Positions 1-10,459 of a DNA stretch of 10,459 nucleotides are shown one piece after another. Position 1 is the first letter of the stretch. Each line of letters opens with the position of its first letter. The DNA comes from Escherichia coli (lineage in GTDB: Bacteria > Pseudomonadota > Gammaproteobacteria > Enterobacterales > Enterobacteriaceae): the NCBI RefSeq assembly GCF_003334765.1, contig NZ_QOWT01000058.1; one strand, written 5' to 3'. The notes below the pieces were generated by a model. That model ran no database searches and had not been told where the DNA came from. It saw only the letters and a list, made by a program, of their open reading frames with translations. Position numbers and translations under genes: made by a program.

Positions 1-1016
1 ACCGAGAAAGACACTGAAGTTCAAAACACCGAAAGAGATAATTGAAAGGGGTGTTGCATTGACAGATTGAATCTACAACAGCGTATTTTGCACAGGAGTC
101 GCTGAAAAATACGCGTTAATCGAACAATGGCGACAACAATTTCCCATTGAAGCGATGTGTCAGGTATTTGGTGTATCCAGGAGCGGTTATTACAACTGGG
201 TACAGCATGAACCCTCAGACAGAAAACAAAGTGATGAGCGGCTAAAACTGGAGATTAAGGTGGCACATATCCGCACTCGCGAAACATATGGAACCCGGCG
301 GCTCCAGACGGAGCTGGCAGAGAATGGCATCATCGTTGGTCGTGACCGACTGGCACGTCTTCGTAAGGAGCTAAGGCTACGCTGTAAGCAGAAACGCAAG
401 TTCAGAGCGACTACGAACTCGAACCACAATCTGCCAGTTGCGCCAAATCTGCTGAACCAGACGTTCGCTCCTACAGCACCAAATCAGGTCTGGGTGGCGG
501 ACCTGACGTATGTTGCCACACAGGAGGGATGGTTGTACCTCGCTGGCATCAAAGATGTTTATACGTGCGAAATTGTCGGCTACGCCATGGGAGAGCGCAT
601 GACAAAAGAGCTGACAGGTAAAGCCCTGTTTATGGCGCTCAGGAGCCAGCGCCCACCTGCCGGGCTAATCCACCACTCTGATCGAGGTTCACAGTACTGC
701 GCATACGATTACCGGGTCATACAGGAGCAGTTTGGTCTGAAAACATCAATGTCGCGTAAAGGTAACTGTTACGACAACGCTCCGATGGAAAGCTTCTGGG
801 GAACGCTGAAAAATGAGAGCCTGAGCCACTATCGTTTTAATAACCGGGATGAAGCCATCTCAGTAATACGGGAATACATTGAGATTTTCTACAATCGTCA
901 GCGTCGTCACTCTCGTCTGGGGAATATCTCCCCGGCAGCCTTCAGGGAAAAATATCATCAGATGGCTGCTTAAAAAAAGAACAAATGGTAGTGTCCGCTA
1001 TTGCCAGTACACCTCA
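1..1016 (+). mobile_element. IS3-family insertion sequence (possibly IS600-like), 3' ~1 kb; left end lies outside the window
   Basis: OrfB frame is open from 71 and contains the 272-aa ORF 155..973. An OrfA-like C-terminal tail (QIESTTAYFAQESLKNTR, 63..119) sits in the frame that is -1-shifted relative to OrfB, the usual IS3-family arrangement. The proposed right end CCAGTACACCTCA (1004..1016) ends in CA; its reverse complement TGAGGTGTACTGGCAATAGCGGACAC resembles IS3-type terminal repeats as I recall them. The right boundary is an estimate. Confidence 0.7.
155..973 (+). CDS. IS3-family transposase OrfB (DDE integrase-core domain)
   Basis: 272-aa ORF with typical IS3 OrfB features: N-terminal VSRSGYY motif, WLYLA...D, HSDRGSQY and CYDNAPMESFWGTLK motifs. 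In IS3 elements this frame is normally expressed as an OrfAB fusion by -1 frameshifting; the frame is open upstream to 71. The specific IS name is from memory only. Confidence 0.9.
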   Translation: MCQVFGVSRSGYYNWVQHEPSDRKQSDERLKLEIKVAHIRTRETYGTRRLQTELAENGIIVGRDRLARLRKELRLRCKQKRKFRATTNSNHNLPVAPNLLNQTFAPTAPNQVWVADLTYVATQEGWLYLAGIKDVYTCEIVGYAMGERMTKELTGKALFMALRSQRPPAGLIHHSDRGSQYCAYDYRVIQEQFGLKTSMSRKGNCYDNAPMESFWGTLKNESLSHYRFNNRDEAISVIREYIEIFYNRQRRHSRLGNISPAAFREKYHQMAA

Positions 1017-1447
1017 CGCTTCCAGTCTTCGCGGTCGTTGTCGATAACTTCTTTTTTTGCCCAGCGATGGATGCTGCCGTCAATGTTTCCGGCATCCACA
1101 TCACTAGGCCAGAGAGCGTAGGCCAGTTCGTCATCCAGTGTTTTCCATGTCTGCTTGTATTCGCGATGAATGGCAGCAATGACCGGGCTGATTTTTCCTG
1201 TTGAATTTTCAGTGTACTGTTGATTGGCTCTGGCGCGGGCGAGATCAACAACAGACGTGTATTTTCCGGTTTCCTTGCGTTCACCTTCGCGACGTTTTTT
1301 CCAGATGCGCATCTCTGCCTGAATTTCGGGCCATTTAGCACCAGGAATACATTTATGCTTAACCCACCCAATGGCGTGCAACTTAAGCTCCGGATACGGG
1401 TTATTCCCCTCTGAACAGGCGCGTAAGGACTGGCAAAACGCCCGCAA
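998..1447 (-). CDS. hypothetical protein (phage-like), 3' end runs into the IS3-family element
   Basis: 149-codon ORF with protein-like composition, but the first codon is TTG and the first ATG is 46 codons in. The last 5 codons plus stop (998..1016) lie inside the proposed IS terminal sequence, so the native C-terminus may have been replaced by the insertion. A second minus-strand frame (970..1464) has low-complexity translation and is considered spurious. Confidence 0.3.
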   Translation of the reverse strand: MRAFCQSLRACSEGNNPYPELKLHAIGWVKHKCIPGAKWPEIQAEMRIWKKRREGERKETGKYTSVVDLARARANQQYTENSTGKISPVIAAIHREYKQTWKTLDDELAYALWPSDVDAGNIDGSIHRWAKKEVIDNDREDWKREVYWQ

Positions 1448-1466
1448 AAAACTCTCGAGGGCAAAG

Positions 1467-1637
1467 GTGAAGAAACCTGCTGTGGTTGATCCGGACCTTA
1501 TCTGGTCATCACCTGACGGAGAAATACGTCGCTACGACAGTCGCCTAAACATAATCTGTCGCGAGTGCCGGAAGAGCGAAGTTATGCAGCGCATACTGGC
1601 TTTCTATCAGGGTAATTTTCAGGACGTGGCGCAGTGA
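1467..1637 (+). CDS. small hypothetical ORF, translationally coupled (GTGA overlap) to the downstream methyltransferase-like gene
   Basis: The track ORF starts at 1371, but that would overlap the divergent minus-strand ORF. GTG at 1467 is preceded by GAGGG (1457..1461). Its stop TGA (1635..1637) overlaps the GTG start at 1634 of the next ORF. No recognised domain. Confidence 0.25.
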   Translation: MKKPAVVDPDLIWSSPDGEIRRYDSRLNIICRECRKSEVMQRILAFYQGNFQDVAQ

Positions 1638-2080
1638 GTGCACCGGCAACCATTCTTGATATGTGCTGTGGCAGCCGCATGTTCTGGTTCGATAAGTCTG
1701 ACGAACGGGCGATATTCAGCGATATCAGAAAAGAAGGATACACATTACGCAATGGGAGACGCTTGATTATCAGCCCTGACATTATCGCAGATTTTCGTGC
1801 ATTATCATTTGCAGACGCATCTTTTTCGATGGTTGTATTAGACCCTCCGCATCTTGAGAGTGTTGGTGATAACGCCTGGATGGGAAAGAAATATGGACGG
1901 CTGAATAAAGATGCCTGGCGTGATGATTCGCGACAGAGATTTAAAGAAGCCTTTCGGGTGTTGAGGCCGCACGGCGTTCTGATTTTTTAATGGAATGAAA
2001 CGCAAATACCGGTAAGCCAGATTCTGGCACTGACAGACAGAAAACCTGTTATCTGTCAACGAACAGGGAAAAAACGATAA
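1634..2080 (+). pseudogene. SAM-dependent (DNA) methyltransferase-like gene interrupted by an in-frame TAA at 1988..1990
   Basis: Translation contains a motif-I-like DMCCGSR and a motif-IV-like VVLDPPH (DPPY/NPPY class), then LRPHGVLIF before the TAA. The same frame stays open for 29 more codons (WNETQIPVSQILALTDRKPVICQRTGKKR) to TAA 2078..2080. Assignment to the N6-adenine/N4-cytosine methyltransferase class is by motif only. Confidence 0.45.
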
Positions 2081-2252
2081 AACCCACTGGATTATTTTTA
2101 TGAAAGAGGCATCCAGTGAGTAGATTCGTAAGGCTACAGATACGTATATCTGAATAATTAAATTCAGTTCTGTAAATAAAATTTAATCCTTAACCGGATG
2201 GATTTCTGCACCCTCAGAACATCAGGAGGCCGCCCGAAAGGGCGGTAGTGAA

Positions 2253-2363
2253 ATGCGAAAGTTCAAAATTATTATTGAAACGGGAATAGCTGGTGGAGAT
2301 TTTGAGGATGTATTCGAAGTGGACGATGACGCAACACCTGAGGAAATTCATGACGGAGCATAA
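2253..2363 (+). CDS. small acidic hypothetical ORF (36 aa)
   Basis: ATG 2253 to TAA 2361..2363, translation MRKFKIIIETGIAGGDFEDVFEVDDDATPEEIHDGA. AGGAGG lies at 2224..2229, separated from the ATG by a GAAA-capped hairpin (2229..2246). Below the ORF-track length cutoff and unverified. Confidence 0.2.
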   Translation: MRKFKIIIETGIAGGDFEDVFEVDDDATPEEIHDGA

Positions 2364-2412
2364 GAAATTTTCTTTAACTACTGCAATTACTCATACCACG
2401 AAATAAAAGACG

Positions 2413-2604
2413 ATGAGGAAGAACAAAGTGGCTGATTTTTGTTCAGCTAAATATAACATCAGTTTTGAAGAGCGGGATGAACTATTAATGGACTATGGTG
2501 AGTTACGCGGTGGAAGTGCTGCTGATGTCGAATCCTAGCGTGATGACTATGAAGCGGGAAAAACTCCGGTCGAAGCATATTGTGATGAGTGGGGCGATGA
2601 ATGA
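2413..2604 (+). pseudogene. short ORF interrupted by in-frame TAG (2536..2538); probable decayed prophage gene
   Basis: ATG 2413, 41 codons, TAG, then 21 more open codons to TGA 2602..2604. The alternative frame is also open, which fits decayed coding DNA. Confidence 0.2.
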
Positions 2605-2888
2605 GCGAGATTAATTATCAGGAAGGGCATGAAACGGCGGGGCAAGCAAAACCAGTGGCATGGCGATATCGCTACGTGAAAAAAGGCGTTACGGACTTTC
2701 AGGGGAAGTAGTGGTCTGGTGACTGGAAATATGTACCGAAAAAAGAGGATTGTAACGACAGGCCGAACTATCAAATTCAGGCCTTATTCACTGCCTCACC
2801 AGTCCCAGTTACATCAGAAGAACTGGTTAAAGCTGTGCACTTTTATGAACAACTAAAACGCGAAAATCCACCAACATCCGGCAACTAG
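2601..2888 (+). pseudogene. short ORF interrupted by in-frame TAG (2709..2711); probable decayed prophage gene
   Basis: ATG 2601 overlaps the upstream stop (ATGA). 36 codons, TAG, then 58 further open codons (WSGDWKYVPKKEDCNDRPNYQIQALFTASPVPVTSEELVKAVHFYEQLKRENPPTSGN) to TAG 2886..2888. Confidence 0.25.
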
Positions 2889-3142
2889 ATTAATGGATTA
2901 ACTATGTCGGTTAAACGACCAGCCAACTGAAAAAGCGGAAACCTGATTACAGGTTGCCAGATAAGGCAATGAGCTACCTGGCGCGGAACGGACTGATAAG
3001 TATGGGGAATGTTTTACGATGAACCTTTAGACTAAAGAGTTTGTAACGCTATGTAAGTGATTTTTTCTGGTTTAGATATTTATATGTCCGGCCAAATTGA
3101 GGTGTGTTTAAATGTAATTGCACATTGATTGTAGGAGGAATA

Positions 3143-3322
3143 ATGAAAAACGCATTGCAGTTTTTGTTTGTTGCGTTCTGGTTGTTCGCATCATGTATGC
3201 CCATCATCTTCACAGCAAGGTATATGGAAAAAGTTGATGTTTTGATATTAATATTTGGATATATAAATGCCCTTTTTTTAGGGGTGTTCATGGCGGTCAT
3301 GTGCATTGAATACTGGCGGTAA
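3143..3322 (+). CDS. small predicted membrane protein (59 aa, two hydrophobic helices) in an AT-rich islet
   Basis: Strong Shine-Dalgarno AGGAGG (3133..3138) 4 nt before ATG 3143. Translation MKNALQFLFVAFWLFASCMPIIFTARYMEKVDVLILIFGYINALFLGVFMAVMCIEYWR has two hydrophobic segments. Local GC content is low. The track lists a longer 3104 start with no ribosome-binding site. Confidence 0.4.
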   Translation: MKNALQFLFVAFWLFASCMPIIFTARYMEKVDVLILIFGYINALFLGVFMAVMCIEYWR

Positions 3323-3508
3323 ATACAGCGAACTCCATTGGTTTAGTTGGATATTTACTGTGCTGGACAAAAACGGTTTGCGGGGAAATCTTAGTTAAGT
3401 AGAATGACTGCGGGTGCTTGAGGCTATCTGCCTCGGGCATGGACACCAACGGCAGATAGAGAAAAGCCCCAGTTAACATTACGCGTCCTGCAAGACGCTT
3501 AACATTAA

Positions 3509-3590
3509 TCTGAGGCCAATTTCATGCTAGACACATGTAGGTTAGCCTCTTACGTGCCGAAAGGCACGGAGAAGCAGGCTATTGTTAACA
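3509..3590 (+). other. degenerate relE-3'end/hok-leader-like segment (paralogous remnant of the hokD translation-initiation region), no intact toxin ORF
   Basis: 3568..3582 GGAGAAGCAGGCTAT is identical to the hokD ribosome-binding site and start region at 6857..6871. The upstream hairpin CGTGCC-GAAA-GGCACG (3553..3568) parallels CACC-GAA-GGTG (6824..6834) with compensatory changes. 3509..3537 weakly resembles 6794..6818. The start position reads ATT and only 6 codons follow before TAA. Confidence 0.4.
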
Positions 3591-3627
3591 CCAAGCTGTA
3601 ATGTCCCCTTTGAACCATTCTAAAATG

Positions 3628-3654
3628 TCCCCAGACAATTCTCTGGGGGATTTT
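3628..3654 (+). other. stem-loop CCCCAGA-caattc-TCTGGGG plus T-run directly upstream of the transposase start
   Basis: 7-bp perfect stem followed by GATTTTTC, ending 2 nt before ATG 3657. It is terminator-like; it may insulate the transposase gene from read-in transcription or be part of the IS end. Confidence 0.4.
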
Positions 3655-3656
3655 TC

Positions 3657-4970
3657 ATGATCAAAGAGACTGTTACGATGAGTCATAAGGAACTCCACCG
3701 ACTTCAGATTATTCAGGAACAAGCTGCGGCACGCATTGGCATTTCTATTCGGCAGGTTAAACGTCTGGTGCAACGGTATAGAAATGAAGGGCCTTCTGGT
3801 CTGGTTTCCCACCGACGTGGAAAGCGTCCTAATAATTCCTTTTCTACTGAATTCAGAGCAACAGTAATTTCACTCCTCAAAGGCCGTTACGCTGATTTTG
3901 GACCTACGTTTGCGTGCGAAAAATTGCGCGAGATACACGGTTTATCTTTATCCGTTGAAACTCTCAGAAAGTGGATGATAGAAGAGGGGTTATGGCGTGA
4001 ACGCCGTCGTAAAATTGCCCGTATATATCAACGCCGCATGCGACGACCATCTTACGGTGAACTGATCCAGATTGATGGCTCACCTCATGACTGGTTTGAA
4101 AATCGAGGCCCCAGATGTACACTGATCGTTTTCATTGATGATGCCACCAGTGCGTTGATGGCGTTGCGTTTTGTGCCTGCTGAAACAACCCGGGCTTACA
4201 TGGAAACCCTCCGGGGTTACCTTAATGATCATGGCGTACCGCTCGCTCTCTACTCTGATAGACACAGTATATTCAGGGTAAATAACCCAGAGCGGGAAGG
4301 TGAGCTGACCCAGTTCACTCGTGCGATAAAGACACTGGGCATCGAGCCAATCCATGCCAACAGCCCGCAGGCAAAAGGGCGGGTAGAGCGCGCCAATCAG
4401 ACACTACAGGACAGGCTGGTCAAAGAAATGCGGCTTCAGAATATCAGTGATATTGAAACAGCAAATGCATGGTTGCCGACCTTTATTGAAGCCTATAACA
4501 ACCGGTTCGCTACGTCGCCTCGTACTACTGATAATGCTCATCTTGATGTGCACCATTCTGAAGAGGAACTGGGTTATATCTTCAGCCTACAGGCGAAGCG
4601 CGTTCTGTCTAAAAATCTCACTTTCCAGTACAAAAGCAGTGCGTTTCAGGTACGCAGTGAGGGCCGGGGATATCGACTTAGGCATTCGGTTGTTACTGTA
4701 TGCGAGAACTTTGACGGTGAAATTAACGTTCTGTATGACGGGAAAGCGCTGGGCTGGGAAAAGTATGTTGATGGCCCGGAGCCTATACCACTGGATGATG
4801 AAAAGAGTGTCCATGAACGAGTGGATAATGCCCGTATTGATTTACGCTCAAAATACTATGTTAAACCTAAAGCTGACCATCCCTGGCTTACGCGCCGAAC
4901 GCAAAGTCATCAGCAAGTTAAGCCCCCGAAGTTACCTAAAAAGAAGCCTGATCCCGATAAAAAAGATTGA
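3657..4970 (+). CDS. DDE transposase with N-terminal helix-turn-helix and integrase-core domain (ISNCY/IS1202-group or IS481-like)
   Basis: 437-aa ORF. The N-terminus (RIGISIRQVKRLVQRYRNEG) looks like a helix-turn-helix. Candidate catalytic residues are D in IQIDGSPHDW, D in ALYSDRHSIF and E in KGRVERANQTL. The basic lysine/proline-rich C-terminus is typical of transposases. GGGGGA precedes the ATG by 7 nt. Family assignment is from memory. Confidence 0.85.
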   Translation: MIKETVTMSHKELHRLQIIQEQAAARIGISIRQVKRLVQRYRNEGPSGLVSHRRGKRPNNSFSTEFRATVISLLKGRYADFGPTFACEKLREIHGLSLSVETLRKWMIEEGLWRERRRKIARIYQRRMRRPSYGELIQIDGSPHDWFENRGPRCTLIVFIDDATSALMALRFVPAETTRAYMETLRGYLNDHGVPLALYSDRHSIFRVNNPEREGELTQFTRAIKTLGIEPIHANSPQAKGRVERANQTLQDRLVKEMRLQNISDIETANAWLPTFIEAYNNRFATSPRTTDNAHLDVHHSEEELGYIFSLQAKRVLSKNLTFQYKSSAFQVRSEGRGYRLRHSVVTVCENFDGEINVLYDGKALGWEKYVDGPEPIPLDDEKSVHERVDNARIDLRSKYYVKPKADHPWLTRRTQSHQQVKPPKLPKKKPDPDKKD

Positions 4971-5366
4971 AACCAAGATCGATTCGGTTGAGTGCATATC
5001 CATTCATAGGGTAGATTCTTAAGTCGCGTTTCTGGTGTTCATTTTCGGGTGGTTTGTTACTTGTTTTACCGGGGATATGCCAGAAACGCGCTGAGTCAGT
5101 CTGGGCGGTGCGCGTAATGAGGCGTTATGGTAAATAGCCTATGCTAATGTCCGCTAAGAGCAAGAAGCGGAAGTTGGCAGTTTTGTGGACTGTCCCCACA
5201 AAAGTGACTACAGAAATAGTTGCAATTCATAATTGATCATGGGTTGTCAGTTAAACTCGTGGCGATTTAAATAGACTAATTGGGAGTGCGTCCATTACTT
5301 ATATCTTGTAATGTTAACTATCAGAAATGATACAAAGATAATATGTCTTTAAAGAAAAGGCTGATG

Positions 5367-5392
5367 GCGAAAAGTGGCCCGATGAGGGCCAC
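5367..5392 (-). terminator. rho-independent terminator of flxA
   Basis: Hairpin GTGGCCC-gatga-GGGCCAC (5374..5392). On the minus strand it is followed by TTTTCGCC, 14 nt downstream of the flxA stop. Confidence 0.5.
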
Positions 5393-5406
5393 AATACGGC
5401 TGTCAC

Positions 5407-5739
5407 TTAGACGTAAATATCAATGGTGCCAGCGGTATTTGTATCGTCTTTTTTCTCTTCTTTTTTATCAGGCTGAACTGTCGCGTCTTCATTCTTTTTC
5501 TCTGCCTGCTGCCTTAACAACTGCTCCAGTTGAGCCCAGAGGCTTTCAATTTGCTTCTGTACCAATGCAGCCATTTCTTTTTTCTGCTGTGTCGTCATCC
5601 CCTCTTCCGATGAGATTTTCCCAAGCTTTTCAGTCAGCACCTGAATTTGTCTTGTGATTTTGGCTATTTCTGATGTTCCTTCCGGGGCGGAGTTGTTTGA
5701 AATAACGGTTGAGGTATTTCCCTGAATTGTGACAGACAT
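5407..5739 (-). CDS. flxA: FlxA (FliA-regulated prophage protein)
   Basis: 110-aa ORF (MSVTIQGNTSTVISNNSAPEG...QQKKEMAALVQKQIESLWAQLEQLL...) recognised from memory as E. coli FlxA. GGAG lies 7 nt upstream of the ATG on the minus strand, and a sigma-28 promoter lies just upstream. Confidence 0.85.
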   Translation of the reverse strand: MSVTIQGNTSTVISNNSAPEGTSEIAKITRQIQVLTEKLGKISSEEGMTTQQKKEMAALVQKQIESLWAQLEQLLRQQAEKKNEDATVQPDKKEEKKDDTNTAGTIDIYV

Positions 5740-5762
5740 AGATTTCTCCTTTTAAAAAAGCA

Positions 5763-5789
5763 CTATCGGCATGCACAAAAAAATCTTTA
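5763..5789 (-). promoter_or_regulatory. sigma-28 (FliA) promoter for flxA
   Basis: Minus strand reads TAAAGATT-N11-GCCGATAG against the class-3 flagellar consensus TAAAGTTT-N11-GCCGATAA (14/16). The -10 element ends about 24 nt upstream of the flxA ATG. Confidence 0.6.
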
Positions 5790-5941
5790 ATCGTATTTCT
5801 TGTGTCATTAATTGTTTGATGTTCAGATTGTTTTCCTCGCGGGCTGGCGCGCCTCAGAAAGTAAAGCTTGTTGACAGGGGTAAACGTTCGGCAATAATTT
5901 TCTGCCGCATGCGGGTGTTGCATAAAACGTGTTACGTTCCT

Positions 5942-6247
5942 TTATCGACAGGTCAGGTCACCGCTCACCCGCCGACGAGAAAGCAACACTGACATGCTAA
6001 AGCAAAAAATAGATGAATAAGTTGAGTTGTGCATATGTAGCCTGACCGTCACAAAGTATATGGTGTCTGTACCAGTAAGATGATGGCCGGACTCTTTAAA
6101 AACGAGCTGACCTGCACAATACAGGATGGACTTAGCAATGGCTGCTCCTGGCACAAAGCGGACAGTGATCACCGTTCTTACGACTACTTTCTGACTTCCT
6201 TCGTGACTTGCCCTAAGCATGTTGTAGTGCGATACTTGTAATGACAT
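5942..6247 (-). CDS. ydfV: YdfV-like hypothetical ORF (doubtful coding status)
   Basis: 101-codon ORF at the position where K-12 annotates ydfV, as I recall. Its ATG (6245..6247) lies inside the relBE operator repeats and the translation is S/T/C-rich and poorly protein-like, so it is kept at low confidence. Confidence 0.4.
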   Translation of the reverse strand: MSLQVSHYNMLRASHEGSQKVVVRTVITVRFVPGAAIAKSILYCAGQLVFKESGHHLTGTDTIYFVTVRLHMHNSTYSSIFCFSMSVLLSRRRVSGDLTCR

Positions 6248-6259
6248 TTGTAATTACAA
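6208..6259 (+). promoter_or_regulatory. relBE promoter and operator (relO)
   Basis: -35 TTGCCC (6208..6213), 17-nt spacer, -10 GATACT (6231..6236). TTGTAAT repeats at 6236..6242 and 6248..6254, and the palindrome TTGTAATTACAA (6248..6259), lie between the promoter and the relB ATG at 6272. This is the classic RelB-RelE autoregulation site. Confidence 0.65.
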
Positions 6260-6271
6260 GAGGTGTAAGAC

Positions 6272-6511
6272 ATGGGTAGCATTAACCTGCGTATTGACGA
6301 TGAACTTAAAGCGCGTTCTTACGCCGCGCTTGAAAAAATGGGTGTAACTCCTTCTGAAGCGCTTCGTCTCATGCTCGAGTATATCGCTGACAATGAACGC
6401 TTGCCGTTCAAACAGACACTCCTGAGTGATGAAGATGCTGAACTTGTGGAGATAGTGAAAGAACGGCTTCGTAATCCTAAGCCAGTACGTGTGACGCTGG
6501 ATGAACTCTGA
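6272..6511 (+). CDS. relB: RelB antitoxin
   Basis: 79-aa ORF MGSINLRIDDELKARSYAALEKMGVTPSEALRLMLEYIADNERLPFKQTLLSDEDAELVEIVKERLRNPKPVRVTLDEL, near-identical to E. coli RelB from memory. Its stop overlaps the relE start (TGATG). Confidence 0.93.
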   Translation: MGSINLRIDDELKARSYAALEKMGVTPSEALRLMLEYIADNERLPFKQTLLSDEDAELVEIVKERLRNPKPVRVTLDEL

Positions 6512-6798
6512 TGGCGTATTTTCTGGATTTTGACGAGCGGGCACTAAAGGAATGGCGAAAGCTGGGCTCGACGGTACGTGAACAGTTGAAAAAGAAGCTG
6601 GTTGAAGTACTTGAGTCACCCCGGATTGAAGCAAACAAGCTCCGTGGTATGCCTGATTGTTACAAGATTAAGCTCCGGTCTTCAGGCTATCGCCTTGTAT
6701 ACCAGGTTATAGACGAGAAAGTTGTCGTTTTCGTGATTTCTGTTGGGAAAAGAGAACGCTCGGAAGTATATAGCGAGGCGGTCAAACGCATTCTCTGA
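6511..6798 (+). CDS. relE: RelE mRNA interferase toxin
   Basis: 95-aa ORF MAYFLDFDERALKEWRKLGSTVREQLKKKLVEVLESPRIEANKLRGMPDCYKIKLRSSGYRLVYQVIDEKVVVFVISVGKRERSEVYSEAVKRIL, recognised as RelE. It is translationally coupled to relB. Confidence 0.93.
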   Translation: MAYFLDFDERALKEWRKLGSTVREQLKKKLVEVLESPRIEANKLRGMPDCYKIKLRSSGYRLVYQVIDEKVVVFVISVGKRERSEVYSEAVKRIL

Positions 6799-6869
6799 AC
6801 CAAAGCATGACATCTCTGTTTCGCACCGAAGGTGACACTTCTGCTTTGCGTTGACAGGAGAAGCAGGCT

Positions 6870-7025
6870 ATGAAGCAGCAAAAGGCGATGTTAATCGCCC
6901 TGATCGTCATCTGTTTAACCGTCATAGTGACGGCACTGGTAACGAGGAAAGACCTCTGCGAGGTACGAATCCGAACCGGCCAGACGGAGGTCGCTGTCTT
7001 CACAGCTTACGAACCTGAGGAGTAA
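6870..7025 (+). CDS. hokD: HokD (RelF) Hok-family type I membrane toxin
   Basis: 51-aa ORF MKQQKAMLIALIVICLTVIVTALVTRKDLCEVRIRTGQTEVAVFTAYEPEE, not in the ORF track because it is short. It has a ribosome-binding site GGAG at 6857..6860. The Hok family signature is a transmembrane helix followed by LCE. Confidence 0.9.
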   Translation: MKQQKAMLIALIVICLTVIVTALVTRKDLCEVRIRTGQTEVAVFTAYEPEE

Positions 7026-7083
7026 GAGACCCGGCGGGGGAGAAATCCCTCGCCACCTCTGATGTGGCAGGCATCCTCAACGC

Positions 7084-7115
7084 ACCCGCACTTAACCCGC
7101 TTCGGCGGGTTTTTG
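7084..7115 (+). terminator. rho-independent terminator after the relB-relE-hokD operon
   Basis: Hairpin CCCGC-ttcg-GCGGG (7086..7099) followed by TTTTTGTTTTTATTTT (7100..7115). Confidence 0.6.
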
Positions 7116-7241
7116 TTTTTATTTTCAACGCGTTTGAAGTTCTGGACGGTGCCGGAATAGAATCAAAAATACTTAAGTAGCGCGCAGGGATAAGAGGGAT
7201 GGTCCCTTAAAGGGGAGAGCTAATTATCCGGAAGGATTCTG

Positions 7242-7493
7242 ATGATGAACATCGAAGAACTGCGTAAAATTTTTTGTGAAGATGGCCTCTATGCTGTGTG
7301 CGTTGAAAATGGAAATCTTGTTAGTCATTACCGCATTATGTGTTTGCGAAAGAATGGGGCTGCGTTAATTAATTTTGTGGATGCTCGGGTCACGGACGGA
7401 TTTATCTTGCGCGAAGGTGAGTTTGTCACTTCATTACAGGCATTGAAAGAGATCGGAATAAAAGCTGGCTTTTCTGCTTTTTCAGGAGAATAA
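7242..7493 (+). CDS. rem: Rem-like prophage protein
   Basis: 83-aa ORF MMNIEELRKIFCEDGLYAVCVENGNLVSHYRIMCLRKNGAALINFVDARVTDGFILREGEF..., matching Qin prophage Rem by memory and by its position between hokD and ydfU. Confidence 0.8.
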   Translation: MMNIEELRKIFCEDGLYAVCVENGNLVSHYRIMCLRKNGAALINFVDARVTDGFILREGEFVTSLQALKEIGIKAGFSAFSGE

Positions 7494-7559
7494 ACTCATC
7501 TACAATCTTGCGCGGGGCTGAACTCCCGCTGAGTAACACCGTGCCACCGGAGAAAACCG

Positions 7560-7838
7560 ATGGCACGCAACGCAAAATATTACAATTCTGATAATTCGCC
7601 CGTTCTTGCCTGCACGCACGGGCGGTATTCTCACGCATTCAAGTCTGAATGGTTCCAGCACCCTCCATGCACTGCAGAACAGGCCGAATGGCTGATTCAT
7701 TCTTACCGCAGGCGCGGGTTCGAGGTTAAGAAAGCTCTCAGTCTCGACTATCGGCACTGGATAATCTCTGTCAGGCTGCCTTATTCCGAACGCCCACCAC
7801 GTGCGTCCCGCACTTTCCAGCAACGGATCTGGAGGTAA
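7560..7838 (+). CDS. hypothetical prophage protein (92 aa), tightly coupled to ydfU
   Basis: GGAG sits 7 nt upstream of the ATG. Its stop at 7836..7838 is followed 1 nt later by the ydfU GTG start, whose ribosome-binding site GGAGG (7831..7835) lies inside this ORF. No recognised domain. Confidence 0.45.
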   Translation: MARNAKYYNSDNSPVLACTHGRYSHAFKSEWFQHPPCTAEQAEWLIHSYRRRGFEVKKALSLDYRHWIISVRLPYSERPPRASRTFQQRIWR

Positions 7839-7839
7839 C

Positions 7840-8889
7840 GTGCGGGTATTACTTAGACCTGTTCTGGTGCCTGAGCTTGGGCTGGTGGTCCTTAAGCCGG
7901 GCCGTGAATCCATACAGATATTTCATAATCCTCGAGTGCTGGTGGAACCGGAACCAAAAAGCATGCGTAATCTGCCATCCGGAGTCGTTCCTGCCGTTCG
8001 CCAGCCGCTGGCGGAAGACAAAACATTGCTGCCGTTTTTTAGTAACGAACGGGTGATTCGTGCTGCTGGCGGCGTTGGCGCATTGTCCGACTGGCTATTA
8101 CGTCATGTTACATCCTGCCAGTGGCCTAATGGCGATTACCATCACACTGAAACAGTCATTCACCGTTATGGTACCGGCGCAATGGTGTTGTGCTGGCACT
8201 GCGACAACCAACTGCGTGACCAGACATCGGAATCACTGGAGCTGCTTGCTCAACAAAATCTGACAGCATGGGTGATTGACGTCATCCGTCACGCAATAAG
8301 CGGTACGCAGGAGCGGGAATTATCTTTGGCTGAATTATCCTGGTGGGCGGTCTGCAATCAGGTGGTGGATGCACTACCTGAGGCTGTATCGCGTCGTTCG
8401 CTGGGATTACCAGCGGAAAAAATCTGCTCGGTGTACCGCGAAAGCGACATCGTACCGGGAGAGCAGACCGCCACCAGCATATTGAAACAACGCACAAAAA
8501 ATCTTGCACCGTTGCCTTACGCCCACCAGCAACAAAAATCACCACAGGAAAAGACGGTGGTAAGCATCACCGTTGATCCAGAGTCTCCGGAATCTTTCAT
8601 GAAGCTGCCTAAACGTCGCCGCTGGGTTAAGGAGAAATACACACGTTGGGTTAAGACACAGCCGTGTGCTTGCTGCGGTATGCCAGCCGACGATCCGCAT
8701 CATCTGATTGGTCACGGGCAGGGCGGAATGGGAACAAAAGCACATGATCTCTTTGTGTTGCCTTTGTGCAGAAAGCATCACAACGAGCTGCATACGGATA
8801 CAGTGGCATTTGAAGATAAGTATGGCTCCCAACTGGAGCTGATATTTCGTTTTATCGATCGCGCGCTGGCAATTGGCGTACTGGCGTAA
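7840..8889 (+). CDS. ydfU: YdfU-like DUF968 protein (HNH-like C-terminal motif)
   Basis: The track ORF 7801..8889 is trimmed to GTG 7840, which is preceded by GGAGG, giving 349 aa. The C-terminus CACCGMPADDPHHLIGHGQGGMGTKAHDLFVLPLCRKHHNELH has a Cys/His pattern like HNH/zinc-binding nucleases. Identity is from memory. Confidence 0.8.
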   Translation: MRVLLRPVLVPELGLVVLKPGRESIQIFHNPRVLVEPEPKSMRNLPSGVVPAVRQPLAEDKTLLPFFSNERVIRAAGGVGALSDWLLRHVTSCQWPNGDYHHTETVIHRYGTGAMVLCWHCDNQLRDQTSESLELLAQQNLTAWVIDVIRHAISGTQERELSLAELSWWAVCNQVVDALPEAVSRRSLGLPAEKICSVYRESDIVPGEQTATSILKQRTKNLAPLPYAHQQQKSPQEKTVVSITVDPESPESFMKLPKRRRWVKEKYTRWVKTQPCACCGMPADDPHHLIGHGQGGMGTKAHDLFVLPLCRKHHNELHTDTVAFEDKYGSQLELIFRFIDRALAIGVLA

Positions 8890-8902
8890 GTGGAGAACGA
8901 GC

Positions 8903-9655
8903 ATGAACCTTGAAGCCTTACCAAAATATTACTCCCCAAAATCTCCAAAATTGAGCGATGACGCTCCAGCGACAGGCACCGGTTGTTTAACAATTACGGA
9001 TGTAATGGCAGCGCAGGGGATGGTGCAGTCGAAAGCACCACTTGGGTTGGCCTTATTTCTGGCAAAAGTTGGTGTTCAGGACCCTCAGTTTGCGATTGAA
9101 GGCCTGCTAAATTACGCGATGGCACTGGATAACCCGACATTGAACAAATTGAGTGAAGAAATCCGGTTACAGATTATTCCTTACCTCGTGAGTTTTGCCT
9201 TTGCTGATTACTCCAGGTCTGCGGCAAGTAAGGCTCGCTGTGAGCATTGTTCAGGTACGGGATTTTATAATGTATTGCGCGAAGTGGTGAAACACTACAG
9301 ACGCGGGGAATCTGTAATCAAGGAAGAATGGGTGAAGGAACTATGTCAGCATTGCCATGGTAAGGGCGAAGCCAGCACAGCGTGCAGAGGGTGTAAGGGT
9401 AAAGGGATTGTTCTGGATGAAAAAAGAACCCGGTTTCATGGCGTACCGGTATATAAGATTTGTGGGCGTTGTAATGGAAACCGGTTTAGTCGTTTACCGA
9501 CCACGCTGGCACGACGTCATGTCCAGAAGCTGGTACCAGACCTGACCGATTATCAGTGGTATAAGGGGTATGCGGACGTCATTGGTAAACTGGTAACAAA
9601 GTGCTGGCAGGAAGAAGCATACGCGGAAGCGCAATTGAGGAAGGTGACGAGATAA
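8903..9655 (+). CDS. quuQ: Q-family late-gene antiterminator (QuuQ-like)
   Basis: 250 aa from ATG 8903, which has GGAG 6 nt upstream; the track ORF starts 10 codons earlier. Contains several CxxC pairs (CEHCSGTG, CQHCHGKG, CRGCKGKG, CGRCNGN) and is followed by a promoter-terminator pair arranged like lambdoid P_R'-tR'. Confidence 0.85.
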   Translation: MNLEALPKYYSPKSPKLSDDAPATGTGCLTITDVMAAQGMVQSKAPLGLALFLAKVGVQDPQFAIEGLLNYAMALDNPTLNKLSEEIRLQIIPYLVSFAFADYSRSAASKARCEHCSGTGFYNVLREVVKHYRRGESVIKEEWVKELCQHCHGKGEASTACRGCKGKGIVLDEKRTRFHGVPVYKICGRCNGNRFSRLPTTLARRHVQKLVPDLTDYQWYKGYADVIGKLVTKCWQEEAYAEAQLRKVTR

Positions 9656-9686
9656 ATGATTTTTGCTGAAGATGGCGACATGATGT

Positions 9687-9715
9687 TTGCATTTTTCAAA
9701 AAATATGGATAAAAT
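9687..9715 (+). promoter_or_regulatory. putative late promoter (P_R'-like sigma-70 promoter) downstream of quuQ
   Basis: -35 TTGCAT (9687..9692), 17-nt spacer, -10 TAAAAT (9710..9715), beginning 32 nt after the quuQ stop. Confidence 0.5.
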
Positions 9716-9760
9716 TTTTTCAACGATGGGCTTTGTATACCCGACGTTAAGAAAAAGTAG

Positions 9761-9790
9761 AAAACCCGCTGATGAGCGGGTTTTGTGCTT
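9761..9790 (+). terminator. rho-independent terminator (tR'-like, possibly bidirectional)
   Basis: Hairpin CCCGCT-gatg-AGCGGG (9765..9780) followed by TTTTGTGCTTT. An A-run precedes it, so it could also act on the minus strand. It lies about 50-60 nt downstream of the predicted start of the putative late promoter. Confidence 0.55.
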
Positions 9791-10076
9791 TAAATGGGGC
9801 AATGGTAATGTTGAATCTCATCCCGGGACTCATGTCTGTTAACTTATTATTTAGCTGGTGACTTGGTTATTTGCCTGATGTTTAAAATGTTTTCTTCCAG
9901 TACAATGTCCCTAAACACAATGAGTCTGCTTATTATATTATTAGCAGAGCTATTACGGCCAAAGTACAGCATAAGCTTTTAAAGCCAATCAACCAGTCAT
10001 CAAGACAGACGGGGTTATTCATAAAAACTCTCCATGTGTGATCCGATGGGGCCTGAAATTAAAGCTTTAATATAGC

Positions 10077-10289
10077 TCATGAAAGGTAAACATTGGCAGC
10101 TGAAGGGCCACGCAGACCATTTATCCGGCAAAATTCCACGCGTAATCCGGTGGTAATTTCTTCTGCATCGCGGAGATTGAGCGCTGAAACATGAAGCTGG
10201 ACATCGATACGACCATCGGATGGGGTGATAAGACCCTTGCCGCTTTTGCCGTCAAAGGTTTTGACAATTCCTGTCATTTTACGGGACAA
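10077..10289 (-). CDS. cspF: cold-shock-domain protein, CspF/CspH family
   Basis: 70-aa [73 protein letters not shown] with CspA-family motifs. It is convergent with quuQ. The first codon is TTG, with AAGGA 6 nt upstream. Confidence 0.8.
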
Positions 10290-10459
10290 AAAAATTCCTT
10301 AATACTGATAACTTGGCGCACTATACACACGTTCCTGAAGAAAGCTATAGTTTTTTGATGGGGTTGAAGATGGCTGGATGTCTAAGGAAGGTGCGAATAA
10401 GCGGGGAAATACTTCTCGGCTGACTCAGTCATTTCATTTCTTCATGTTTGAGCCGATTT

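What the first reader, a model, noticed from the sequence alone, without database searches (positions are those of the whole stretch)
2224..2255. Shine-Dalgarno, hairpin and start-codon arrangement at a small ORF
AGGAGG (2224..2229) lies 23 nt before ATG 2253, with a GAAA-capped hairpin (stem 2229..2235 and 2240..2246) in between. The hairpin could bring the ribosome-binding site close to the start, or it could simply end an upstream transcript.
Basis: seen in the sequence. Interest (0 to 1): 0.2.

Follow-up and report, generated by a model that had tools for sequence, protein, structure and literature searches.

The report
Hairpin-split ribosome-binding site, portable phage cassette
The Shine-Dalgarno, hairpin and start-codon arrangement is real and is a conserved start-of-gene cassette that E. 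coli lambdoid prophages place in front of several unrelated small genes; it most likely works like the hairpin-bridged ribosome-binding sites of phage T4, but in this window the gene behind it is dead.

Summary

The window is a decaying Qin-like lambdoid prophage in an E. coli chromosome. The 36-codon ORF is the front part of a 60-aa DUF7167 gene cut short by a TAA at 2361. Its neighbours are pseudogenes too.

Comparison of about 370 copies shows that SD, hairpin and a 5-8 nt A-rich spacer form a portable unit:
- It precedes at least three unrelated gene families (DUF7167, DUF4014, an MTELTK... family).
- It follows two unrelated upstream contexts.
- It is never found without the hairpin.

Distant DUF7167 genes and some DUF4014 genes instead have an ordinary SD 6-8 nt from ATG. 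Removing the hairpin from the window's leader recreates such an RBS (AGGAGG-AGTGAA-ATG).

All 27 hairpin variants still fold, and a few carry compensatory changes. Formal covariation is only suggestive, because divergence is low.

There is no U-tract, so it is not an intrinsic terminator.

Best reading: a T4 gene 38/25-type split RBS that also sits at mosaic junctions. Function is inferred, not shown. Interest is modest.

The parts
2150..2252 (+). Conserved non-coding leader that travels as a module in front of different genes
   Evidence: Homology with phages 640R1 and pPE4 starts at about 2150 although the upstream genes differ. The same leader precedes unrelated genes in L223, L225 and L226.
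2185..2197 (+). Nearly invariant leader segment AATCCTTAACCGG; its UCCU can pair with AGGA of the SD
   Evidence: Per-site diversity is about 0.02, against 0.144 at third codon positions. The pairing appears in the MFE fold but is weak in the centroid. Its role is unknown.
2197..2215 (+). Upstream hairpin H1 (GAGGG/CCCTC in relatives); in this window T2199 replaces G and breaks one pair
   Evidence: 97% of cells are paired, there are no double-sided changes, and the loop is variable.
2224..2229 (+). Shine-Dalgarno AGGAGG, abutting the hairpin (G2229 is shared with the stem)
   Evidence: Diversity is 0.013. The hexamer is AGGAGG in 77 of 97 distinct contexts; the others differ by one base, except two IS-disrupted contexts. 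The anti-SD duplex is -10.3 kcal/mol.
2229..2246 (+). 7-bp stem with a GAAA (GNRA) tetraloop lying between the SD and the start codon
   Evidence: All 27 natural variants fold at the same place (-4.4 to -14.4 kcal/mol). No U-tract follows.
2247..2252 (+). A-rich unpaired spacer AGUGAA
   Evidence: The sequence varies (diversity 0.146) but the length is fixed at 5-8 nt in all copies.
2253..2435 (+). DUF7167 (PF23768, phrog_1997) gene, a pseudogene here: TAA at 2361-2363 replaces Lys codon 37
   Evidence: PGAP annotation 'internal stop', translation and intact 60-aa homologues. The family N-terminus aligns from Met1, which fixes ATG 2253 as the start.
2428..2604 (+). Next gene of the cassette (phrog_519), also dead: GTG start and TAG at 2536-2538
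1634..2120 (+). Upstream SAM-dependent methyltransferase gene, truncated by TAA at codon 119 and frameshifted

Best explanation
The feature is the translation-initiation region of the first gene of an accessory-gene cassette in the rightward early operon of a Qin/Rac-like lambdoid prophage.

A strong SD (AGGAGG) is separated from AUG by 23 nt. Eighteen of those nucleotides fold into a very stable GNRA-capped hairpin. With the hairpin looped out, 5-8 unpaired A-rich nucleotides remain between the SD and AUG, which is the normal working distance. The 30S subunit can therefore use the distant SD. This is a 'split' or hairpin-bridged RBS, as shown experimentally for phage T4 genes 38 and 25.

The SD-hairpin-spacer unit is portable. 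It sits at mosaic junctions and is re-used in front of at least three unrelated gene families.

In this window the unit is a relic, because the DUF7167 gene behind it carries a nonsense codon.

Shown: the anatomy, the conservation, the portability, the fixed geometry and the absence of terminator features. Inferred: that the hairpin forms in vivo and that translation depends on it.
For: 1. Geometry: 23 nt reduce to 6 nt once the hairpin folds. T4 gene 38 goes from 22 to 5 nt and gene 25 from 27 to 11 nt (PMC3014915).
2. The block stays with the start codon. In ArgO145-type phages the homology begins 2-4 nt before AGGAGG.
3. The same block precedes DUF7167, DUF4014 and an M[TA]ELTKEQ... family, and follows two different upstream contexts.
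4. The spacer is 5-8 nt in all copies, variable in sequence and free of any SD. The hexamer at the stem base is AGGAGG or a one-base variant in every context that is not disrupted by an IS.
5. Natural swaps exist. DUF7167 relatives at 45-68% identity, and about 11 DUF4014 loci, lack the hairpin and carry a conventional SD 6-8 nt from the start. Removing the hairpin from the window's leader gives AGGAGG-AGTGAA-ATG, close to the conventional AAGGAG-AGTGAT-ATG.
6. Diversity is 0.013 at the SD and 0.043 in the 3' arm, against 0.144 at third codon positions. The 5' arm changes mostly C to U, which keeps G.U pairs.
7. All 27 hairpin variants still fold. L388 has five substitutions with 7 of 7 pairs kept, and pairs 4 and 7 show G-C or C-G to A-U swaps.
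8. AGGAGG is the only good anti-SD partner: -10.3 kcal/mol, against -6.7 for the 3' arm.
Against: - There are no experimental data on translation, structure or transcript ends for this element.
- Formal covariation is not significant. On 37 leaders, 293 of 500 shuffles match the observed values. On 27 hairpins, the score is 0.208 against 0.182 in shuffles, reached by 34 of 500.
- Several common variants carry an uncompensated mismatch, for example GCCACCC, TGGCGGT and GGGCAGT.
- The element is confined to E. coli phages, so divergence is low. Conservation could partly reflect recent spread and recombination and not selection.
- The 3' arm GGGCGGU is a weak SD-like sequence at an ideal distance and could serve when the hairpin opens.
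- L224 has the leader and hairpin with no downstream same-strand gene.
Confidence: 0.55

Rival explanations
1. The block is mainly a recombination linker. It would be a short conserved sequence at gene boundaries that promotes module exchange between lambdoid phages, comparable to PeSL cassettes of T4-type phages. The hairpin would have no specific role in translation, and the genes would be translated poorly or through the weak SD-like 3' arm.
For: - Mosaic breakpoints fall immediately on both sides of the block.
- Some phages carry two copies about 1.1 kb apart.
- An IS inserted into the 5' arm in L015, L020 and L048.
- The covariation tests are not significant.
- PeSL precedent: PMC2839356 and PMC4122927.
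Against: - A pure linker would not need a fixed 5-8 nt distance to each new start codon, nor an SD-like hexamer at the stem base in every context that is not disrupted by an IS.
- The two roles are not exclusive. PeSLs are themselves regulatory elements.
Confidence: 0.2
2. The hairpin is an RNA-level control or stability element and not a bridge. It could be a shared operator bound by a phage or host RNA-binding protein that co-regulates the accessory genes. Alternatively it could be a 5'-proximal stem-loop that protects the downstream mRNA after cleavage in the AU-rich leader.
For: - One near-identical hairpin sits next to the RBS of several unrelated genes.
- The loop is GNRA in most variants (GAAA, GGCA, GAGA, GGAA).
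- An AU-rich segment lies upstream at 2160-2190.
- The nearly invariant leader segment has no assigned role.
Against: - No candidate binding protein was identified.
- Loop variants GUCA, UAAA and AAAA exist.
- ArgO145-type copies lack the AU-rich leader entirely.
- There is no Rfam family match.
Confidence: 0.15
3. The hairpin is an intrinsic terminator, or 3'-end-forming structure, for the upstream transcript.
For: It is a G+C-rich stable stem-loop downstream of a gene. In L224 it lies between convergent genes.
Against: - No U-run follows the stem on either strand, and the terminator scan did not report it.
- It sits within a co-directional operon and in a 33-nt intercistronic gap in ArgO145.
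- It segregates with the downstream gene, not the upstream one.
Confidence: 0.04
4. The leader is a nut- or put-like antitermination site, with a boxA-like AATCCTTAAC segment and boxB-like hairpins.
For: - The GCCC-GAAA-GGGC core resembles lambda boxB (GCCCU-GAAAA-AGGGC; from memory).
- A conserved CCTTAAC segment lies upstream.
Against: - The location is wrong: it lies after the replication genes, more than 2.5 kb from cro.
- The boxA match is poor and 38 nt from the hairpin.
- The loop is a tetraloop, not a pentaloop.
- The ArgO145 context lacks the boxA-like part.
- There is no Rfam hit.
Confidence: 0.03

Closest known systems
Split (hairpin-bridged) translation initiation regions of phage T4 genes 38 and 25 (Nivinskas et al. 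1999 J Mol Biol 288:291; Malys & Nivinskas 2009 Mol Microbiol 73:1115; reviewed in PMC3014915)
   Same: - The SD is too far from AUG to work directly (22-27 nt there, 23 nt here).
- A local hairpin lies between them and restores a 5-11 nt working distance (6 nt here).
- Close relatives have the structure, while distant relatives have an ordinary RBS.
   Different: - The host is a temperate lambdoid prophage, not a T-even phage.
- The block is not tied to one gene. It is re-used in front of at least three unrelated gene families and coincides with mosaic junctions.
- The function has not been tested experimentally.
PeSL (promoter-early stem-loop) mobile regulatory cassettes of T4-type phages (PMC2839356, PMC4122927)
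   Same: It is a short conserved intergenic cassette containing a stem-loop. It flanks variable accessory genes and marks the points where unrelated modules are exchanged.
   Different: - PeSLs combine a terminator-like stem-loop with an early promoter.
- Here no promoter or U-tract is detected, and the conserved parts are an SD and a hairpin at a start codon.
Rho-independent terminators
   Same: It has a G+C-rich stem with a tetraloop.
   Different: There is no U-tract, and it lies within an operon directly in front of a start codon.
Lambda nut boxB
   Same: It is a small GCCC/GGGC stem with a purine-rich GNRA-type loop in an early phage transcript.
   Different: - The position in the operon is wrong.
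- No adjacent boxA consensus is present.
- The loop is a tetraloop, not a pentaloop.

Membership tests
Split / hairpin-bridged RBS (T4 gene 38/25 type) | The SD is separated from the start codon by a distance too long for direct use (>15 nt) | tested here: met
   23 nt lie between AGGAGG (2224-2229) and ATG 2253.
Split / hairpin-bridged RBS (T4 gene 38/25 type) | The intervening sequence forms a stable local hairpin that leaves 5-11 unpaired nt between the SD and AUG | tested here: met
   A 7-bp GNRA hairpin folds at -14.4 kcal/mol, with a 6-nt spacer here and 5-8 nt in all copies.
Split / hairpin-bridged RBS (T4 gene 38/25 type) | The structure is conserved in close relatives, and distant relatives use a conventional RBS | tested here: met
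Split / hairpin-bridged RBS (T4 gene 38/25 type) | Base-pair covariation supports the stem | tested here: inconclusive
   Two pairs show double-sided changes, and L388 keeps 7 of 7 pairs after five substitutions. The shuffle controls are not exceeded convincingly: 293/500 and 34/500.
Split / hairpin-bridged RBS (T4 gene 38/25 type) | Stem-destabilising mutations lower translation and compensatory mutations restore it | not testable with these tools
   This needs reporter fusions, toeprinting or structure probing.
Intrinsic (Rho-independent) terminator | A run of U immediately 3' of a G+C-rich stem | tested here: not met
   The 3' flank is AGUGAAAUGCG, and on the minus strand it is CCUCCUGAUG. 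The terminator scan did not list the site.
Intrinsic (Rho-independent) terminator | It lies at the end of a transcription unit | tested here: not met
   It is flanked by same-strand genes of the rightward operon, and it fills a 33-nt intercistronic gap in ArgO145.
PeSL-like mobile regulatory cassette | A conserved intergenic stem-loop motif at junctions between unrelated gene modules | tested here: met
   There are three downstream gene families and two upstream contexts.
PeSL-like mobile regulatory cassette | It contains an early promoter | tested here: not met
   No sigma-70-like site was found in 2121-2247 on the + strand.
Lambdoid nut site (boxA + boxB) | A boxA consensus a few nt upstream of boxB, in a promoter-proximal position after pL or pR | tested here: not met
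   The boxA-like segment is a poor match and lies 38 nt from the hairpin. The element lies after the O, LygF and methyltransferase genes.
DUF7167 (PF23768) protein family, for the ORF | A full-length ~55-60 aa protein matching the family profile from Met1 | tested here: not met
   The homology is clear, but the window copy has an internal TAA at codon 37. It is a pseudogene of the family.

The most novel reading that the evidence does not exclude
The SD-hairpin unit may be a lambdoid counterpart of T4 PeSLs combined with a split RBS. On this reading it is a portable, self-contained translation-start cassette. It lets any newly acquired accessory gene be expressed once its ATG lands 5-8 nt after the stem. 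The identical hairpin in front of several genes would also serve as a common operator for one RNA-binding regulator. It would then act both as an expression adaptor and as the recombination point that drives gene shuffling in prophages, and it is found in about half of complete E. coli genomes.
Probability: 0.15. Interest if true: 0.55.

Novelty: new member of a known kind. Interest (0 to 1): 0.3.

Why it matters
Hairpin-bridged RBSs are known from only a few T4 genes. A conserved, re-usable version in temperate coliphages would matter for three reasons:
- It would show that the arrangement is a general solution. DNA matching the leader plus DUF7167 gene (window 2150-2440) is found in 2,562 of 5,426 complete E. 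coli genomes.
- It would affect start-site and expression prediction for prophage accessory genes, because RBS calculators penalise a 23-nt spacing.
- It would give a concrete sequence at which lambdoid mosaic junctions form.

For this particular window the practical message is plainer. The ORF is a truncated pseudogene in a decaying prophage, and the hairpin is not a terminator.

Tried and rejected
- Rfam: gathering threshold over the window and E<=10 over 2000-2500 gave no family for the leader or hairpin. The only real hit in the window is sok at 3412-3583.
- Terminator and promoter scan: nothing at the hairpin and no promoter in the leader.
- Cross-species search for the leader in 100,044 species genomes: only a coliphage fragment inside a Collinsella MAG and two chance hits, so no deep covariation is available.
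- Search for 'empty-site' alleles (leader and SD without the hairpin): none. The hits were hairpin variants that contain an internal ATG.
- Covariation statistics on 37 leaders and on 27 hairpins: not significant.
- E. coli K-12 Rac region: no copy, so K-12 transcriptome and Ribo-seq resources do not apply.
- Literature: no paper contains the hairpin sequence or 'DUF7167'.
- Protein function: AlphaFold model (beta-beta-alpha, pLDDT 84) with no significant PDB match; PHROG 1997 has unknown function.
- N-terminally extended gene calls (87-93 aa) read through the leader only in alleles that lack the TAA before the ATG. They are not conserved and were rejected as real starts.
- The L015, L020 and L048 'alternative leader' is an IS insertion into the stem, not a natural variant.

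Full report
**1. What is in the sequence**

- AGGAGG at 2224-2229.
- A stem GCCGCCC (2229-2235) paired with GGGCGGT (2240-2246), giving six G-C pairs plus a terminal G.U.
- A GAAA tetraloop at 2236-2239.
- A spacer AGUGAA at 2247-2252.
- ATG at 2253.

RNAfold puts the hairpin in both the MFE and the centroid structure. The isolated 18-mer folds at -14.4 kcal/mol.

A stem of this class is not rare by itself. About 0.6 are expected per strand in shuffles of the window, and AGGAGG is expected about 2.3 times per strand. The exact 18-mer is unique in the window and absent from 200 shuffles. The conjunction with an abutting SD and a start codon is inherited across hundreds of phage genomes, as shown below.

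**2. Context**

The window is a decaying Qin-like lambdoid prophage in an E. coli chromosome.
- It is 100% identical over 1-10385 to several genomes, for example FORC 064.
- Window 1388-10385 is 99.9% identical to phage PhiR42_1 from ECOR13.

All genes around the feature lie on the + strand in the rightward early operon: replication gene, LygF/DUF977, methyltransferase, then small accessory genes and further downstream the Q antiterminator.

PGAP annotates 2253-2435 as a DUF7167-family pseudogene with an internal stop. Translation confirms a TAA at codon 37, at 2361-2363, where intact relatives have Lys.

The neighbouring genes are also dead:
- The methyltransferase upstream (1634-2120) has a TAA at codon 119 and a frameshift.
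- The next gene (2428-2604) has a GTG start and a TAG at 2536.

**3. The start codon is the right one**

DUF7167 (PF23768, phrog_1997) is a real family. There are 228 representative clusters at 50% identity, nearly all 50-60 aa. They align from Met1 with a conserved M-R-K-F/I-K-V N-terminus. Longer gene calls (87-93 aa) simply read through the leader in alleles that lack a stop there, and they are not conserved.

**4. The block belongs to the downstream start, not to the upstream gene**

In phages 640R1, pPE4 and ArgO145 the stretch TCAGGAGGCCGCCCGAAAGGGCGGTA is identical to the window. In ArgO145 the homology begins only 2-4 nt before AGGAGG. There the block fills a 33-nt gap after an unrelated upstream ORF.

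A BLAST of 2150-2440 against complete E. coli genomes finds it in 2,562 of 5,426 genomes. Some genomes match only up to the ATG. Reading those shows the same leader, SD and hairpin directly in front of unrelated genes.

A scan anchored on the hairpin, and a second scan anchored on the 3' coding end of DUF4014 that is unbiased with respect to the hairpin, show the following:
- The block sits in front of at least three families: DUF7167, DUF4014 (72 aa) and an M[TA]ELTKEQLIEE... family.
- It follows two upstream contexts: the long leader, or the end of an ORF (...GATTAATGTC).

Over 97 distinct contexts (371 copies), two things hold:
- The hexamer abutting the stem is AGGAGG in 77 contexts. In the others it is a one-base variant, except for two IS-disrupted contexts.
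- The distance from the stem to the start codon is always 5-8 nt. This spacer is A-rich, variable in sequence and has no SD of its own.

**5. Natural swaps**

DUF7167 genes at 45-68% identity have no hairpin. They are coupled to an upstream gene and carry an ordinary SD 6-8 nt from the start.

Among DUF4014 loci, 96-98 have the hairpin block and about 11 have a conventional AAGGAG-AGTGAT-ATG.

Removing the hairpin (2230-2246) from the window's leader leaves AGGAGG-AGTGAA-ATG, which is essentially that conventional RBS. The arrangement therefore looks like a normal RBS with a hairpin lodged between the SD and the spacer.

No allele with the leader and SD but without the hairpin was found.

**6. 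Is the stem under selection?**

Per-site diversity among 64 haplotypes:

| Region | Diversity |
|---|---|
| SD | 0.013 |
| 3' arm | 0.043 |
| 5' arm | 0.165 |
| Loop | 0.138 |
| Spacer | 0.146 |
| Third codon positions | 0.144 |

The 5'-arm changes are mostly C to U, which keep G.U pairs. That asymmetry fits an RNA stem on the + strand.

All 27 distinct hairpins still fold at the same place, from -4.4 to -14.4 kcal/mol. Informative variants are:
- Pair 4 shows G-C to A-U (L102).
- The loop-closing pair shows C-G to A-U (L386, L388).
- L388 carries five substitutions with all seven pairs kept.

There are also fairly common uncompensated mismatches (GCCACCC, TGGCGGT, GGGCAGT). The formal tests are not significant: 293 of 500 shuffles reach the observed values on 37 leaders, and 34 of 500 reach the covariation score on 27 hairpins.

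The leader is confined to E. coli phage DNA, so deeper covariation cannot be obtained. Many copies also sit in defective prophages under relaxed selection. I treat the structural evidence as suggestive only.

**7. Mechanism**

The best-supported reading is a split, hairpin-bridged RBS. The 23-nt SD-to-AUG distance shrinks to about 6 nt when the hairpin forms. In T4 gene 38 it shrinks from 22 to 5 nt, and in gene 25 from 27 to 11 nt. In those cases stem mutations lower translation, and only close relatives have the structure (PMC3014915).

AGGAGG is the only strong anti-SD partner, at -10.3 kcal/mol. The 3' arm GGGCGGU pairs at -6.7 kcal/mol and is available only if a stem of about -15 kcal/mol opens.

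I put this reading at about 0.55, because nothing here measures translation.

**8. Rivals**

- *Intrinsic terminator.* Rejected. There is no U-tract on either strand, the terminator scan did not find it, the position is intra-operonic, and the block is linked to the downstream gene.
- *Pure recombination linker.* This is comparable to the PeSL cassettes of T4-type phages (PMC2839356, PMC4122927). The breakpoints hugging the block support it, as do the two copies about 1.1 kb apart in some phages. It does not explain the fixed 5-8 nt geometry, and it is compatible with the RBS role.
- *Shared operator or stability element.* This remains possible, but no partner protein was identified.
- *nut-like site.* This fails on position and on boxA.

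**9. Novelty and verdict**

The element is best filed as a new, experimentally untested member of the hairpin-bridged RBS kind. The unusual property is that it is a portable cassette at mosaic junctions of lambdoid prophages. No paper in the searchable library contains the sequence or the family name.

In this window the cassette fronts a pseudogene, so it has no likely current function here. Interest is modest (0.3).

Noticed in passing
window 3412-3583 (+): Strong Rfam match to the hok/sok antisense RNA family (RF01794, 104 bits, against a gathering score of 59). It lies immediately upstream of a 437-aa ISNCY-type transposase ORF (3657-4970). No intact hok ORF is listed there, so the toxin gene may be disrupted by the IS.
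   Followed up: no
window 2185-2197 (+): The leader segment AATCCTTAACCGG is almost invariant (diversity about 0.02), more conserved than the coding sequence. Its UCCU can pair with AGGA of the SD and enclose hairpin H1 in the MFE fold, which makes it a possible anti-SD. It also loosely resembles boxA. Its role is unknown.
   Followed up: partly
window 1634-2120, 2253-2435, 2428-2604: Three consecutive genes are pseudogenes: a methyltransferase, the DUF7167 gene and a phrog_519 gene. The last two each have a nonsense codon at codon 37. The same alleles are present in PhiR42_1, which is deposited as a complete phage.
   Followed up: partly
window 1-1397: The left end is rearranged relative to PhiR42_1. 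An IS600 transposase fragment lies at 155-973. Window 1016-1397 matches part of the phage's exonuclease VIII (recE) gene, which in PhiR42_1 lies about 5 kb away. Both point to deletion or rearrangement of the immunity and replication region.
   Followed up: partly
window 10386-10459: The last 74 bases do not align to any of the best-matching genomes or to PhiR42_1; all of those matches stop at 10385.
   Followed up: no
L027, L109, L157, L174, L207 (relatives), position equivalent to window 2199-2210: In some phages the H1 loop is replaced by a G-run of variable length (about 7-10 G), for example CCGGAGGGGGGGGGAGGCGCCCTC. This could be a slippage-prone tract or an assembly artefact. The same copies carry the GCTGTCC-GGCA hairpin variant.
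   Followed up: no
L015, L020, L048 around 1440-1500: An IS element has inserted into the 5' arm of the hairpin (…GGGGATCCCTCAG|GCCCGAAAGGGCGGT), removing the SD. The DUF7167 ORF downstream is still intact.
   Followed up: partly
L004 (PP818812.1) and L342 (JAIHTM010000290.1): A record named Actinobacillus phage vB_Apl-pPE4 is about 90% identical to this E. coli prophage cassette. A 3-kb scaffold in a Collinsella MAG carries the coliphage leader and gene. Both look like misattributed or contaminating coliphage DNA.
   Followed up: no
L112, L127, L133, L160 (relatives): These phages carry two direct copies of the SD-hairpin block about 1.1 kb apart, one before DUF4014 and one before DUF7167. 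That arrangement could mediate deletion or duplication of the intervening genes.
   Followed up: partly
L086/L087 and L097 upstream of the DUF7167 start: Hairpin-less relatives have GGCCGCC or CGCCGCC about 25-35 nt upstream of the ATG, inside the preceding gene, and an SD where the window has the 3' arm. This hints that the stem may have evolved from such a sequence. This is speculative.
   Followed up: no
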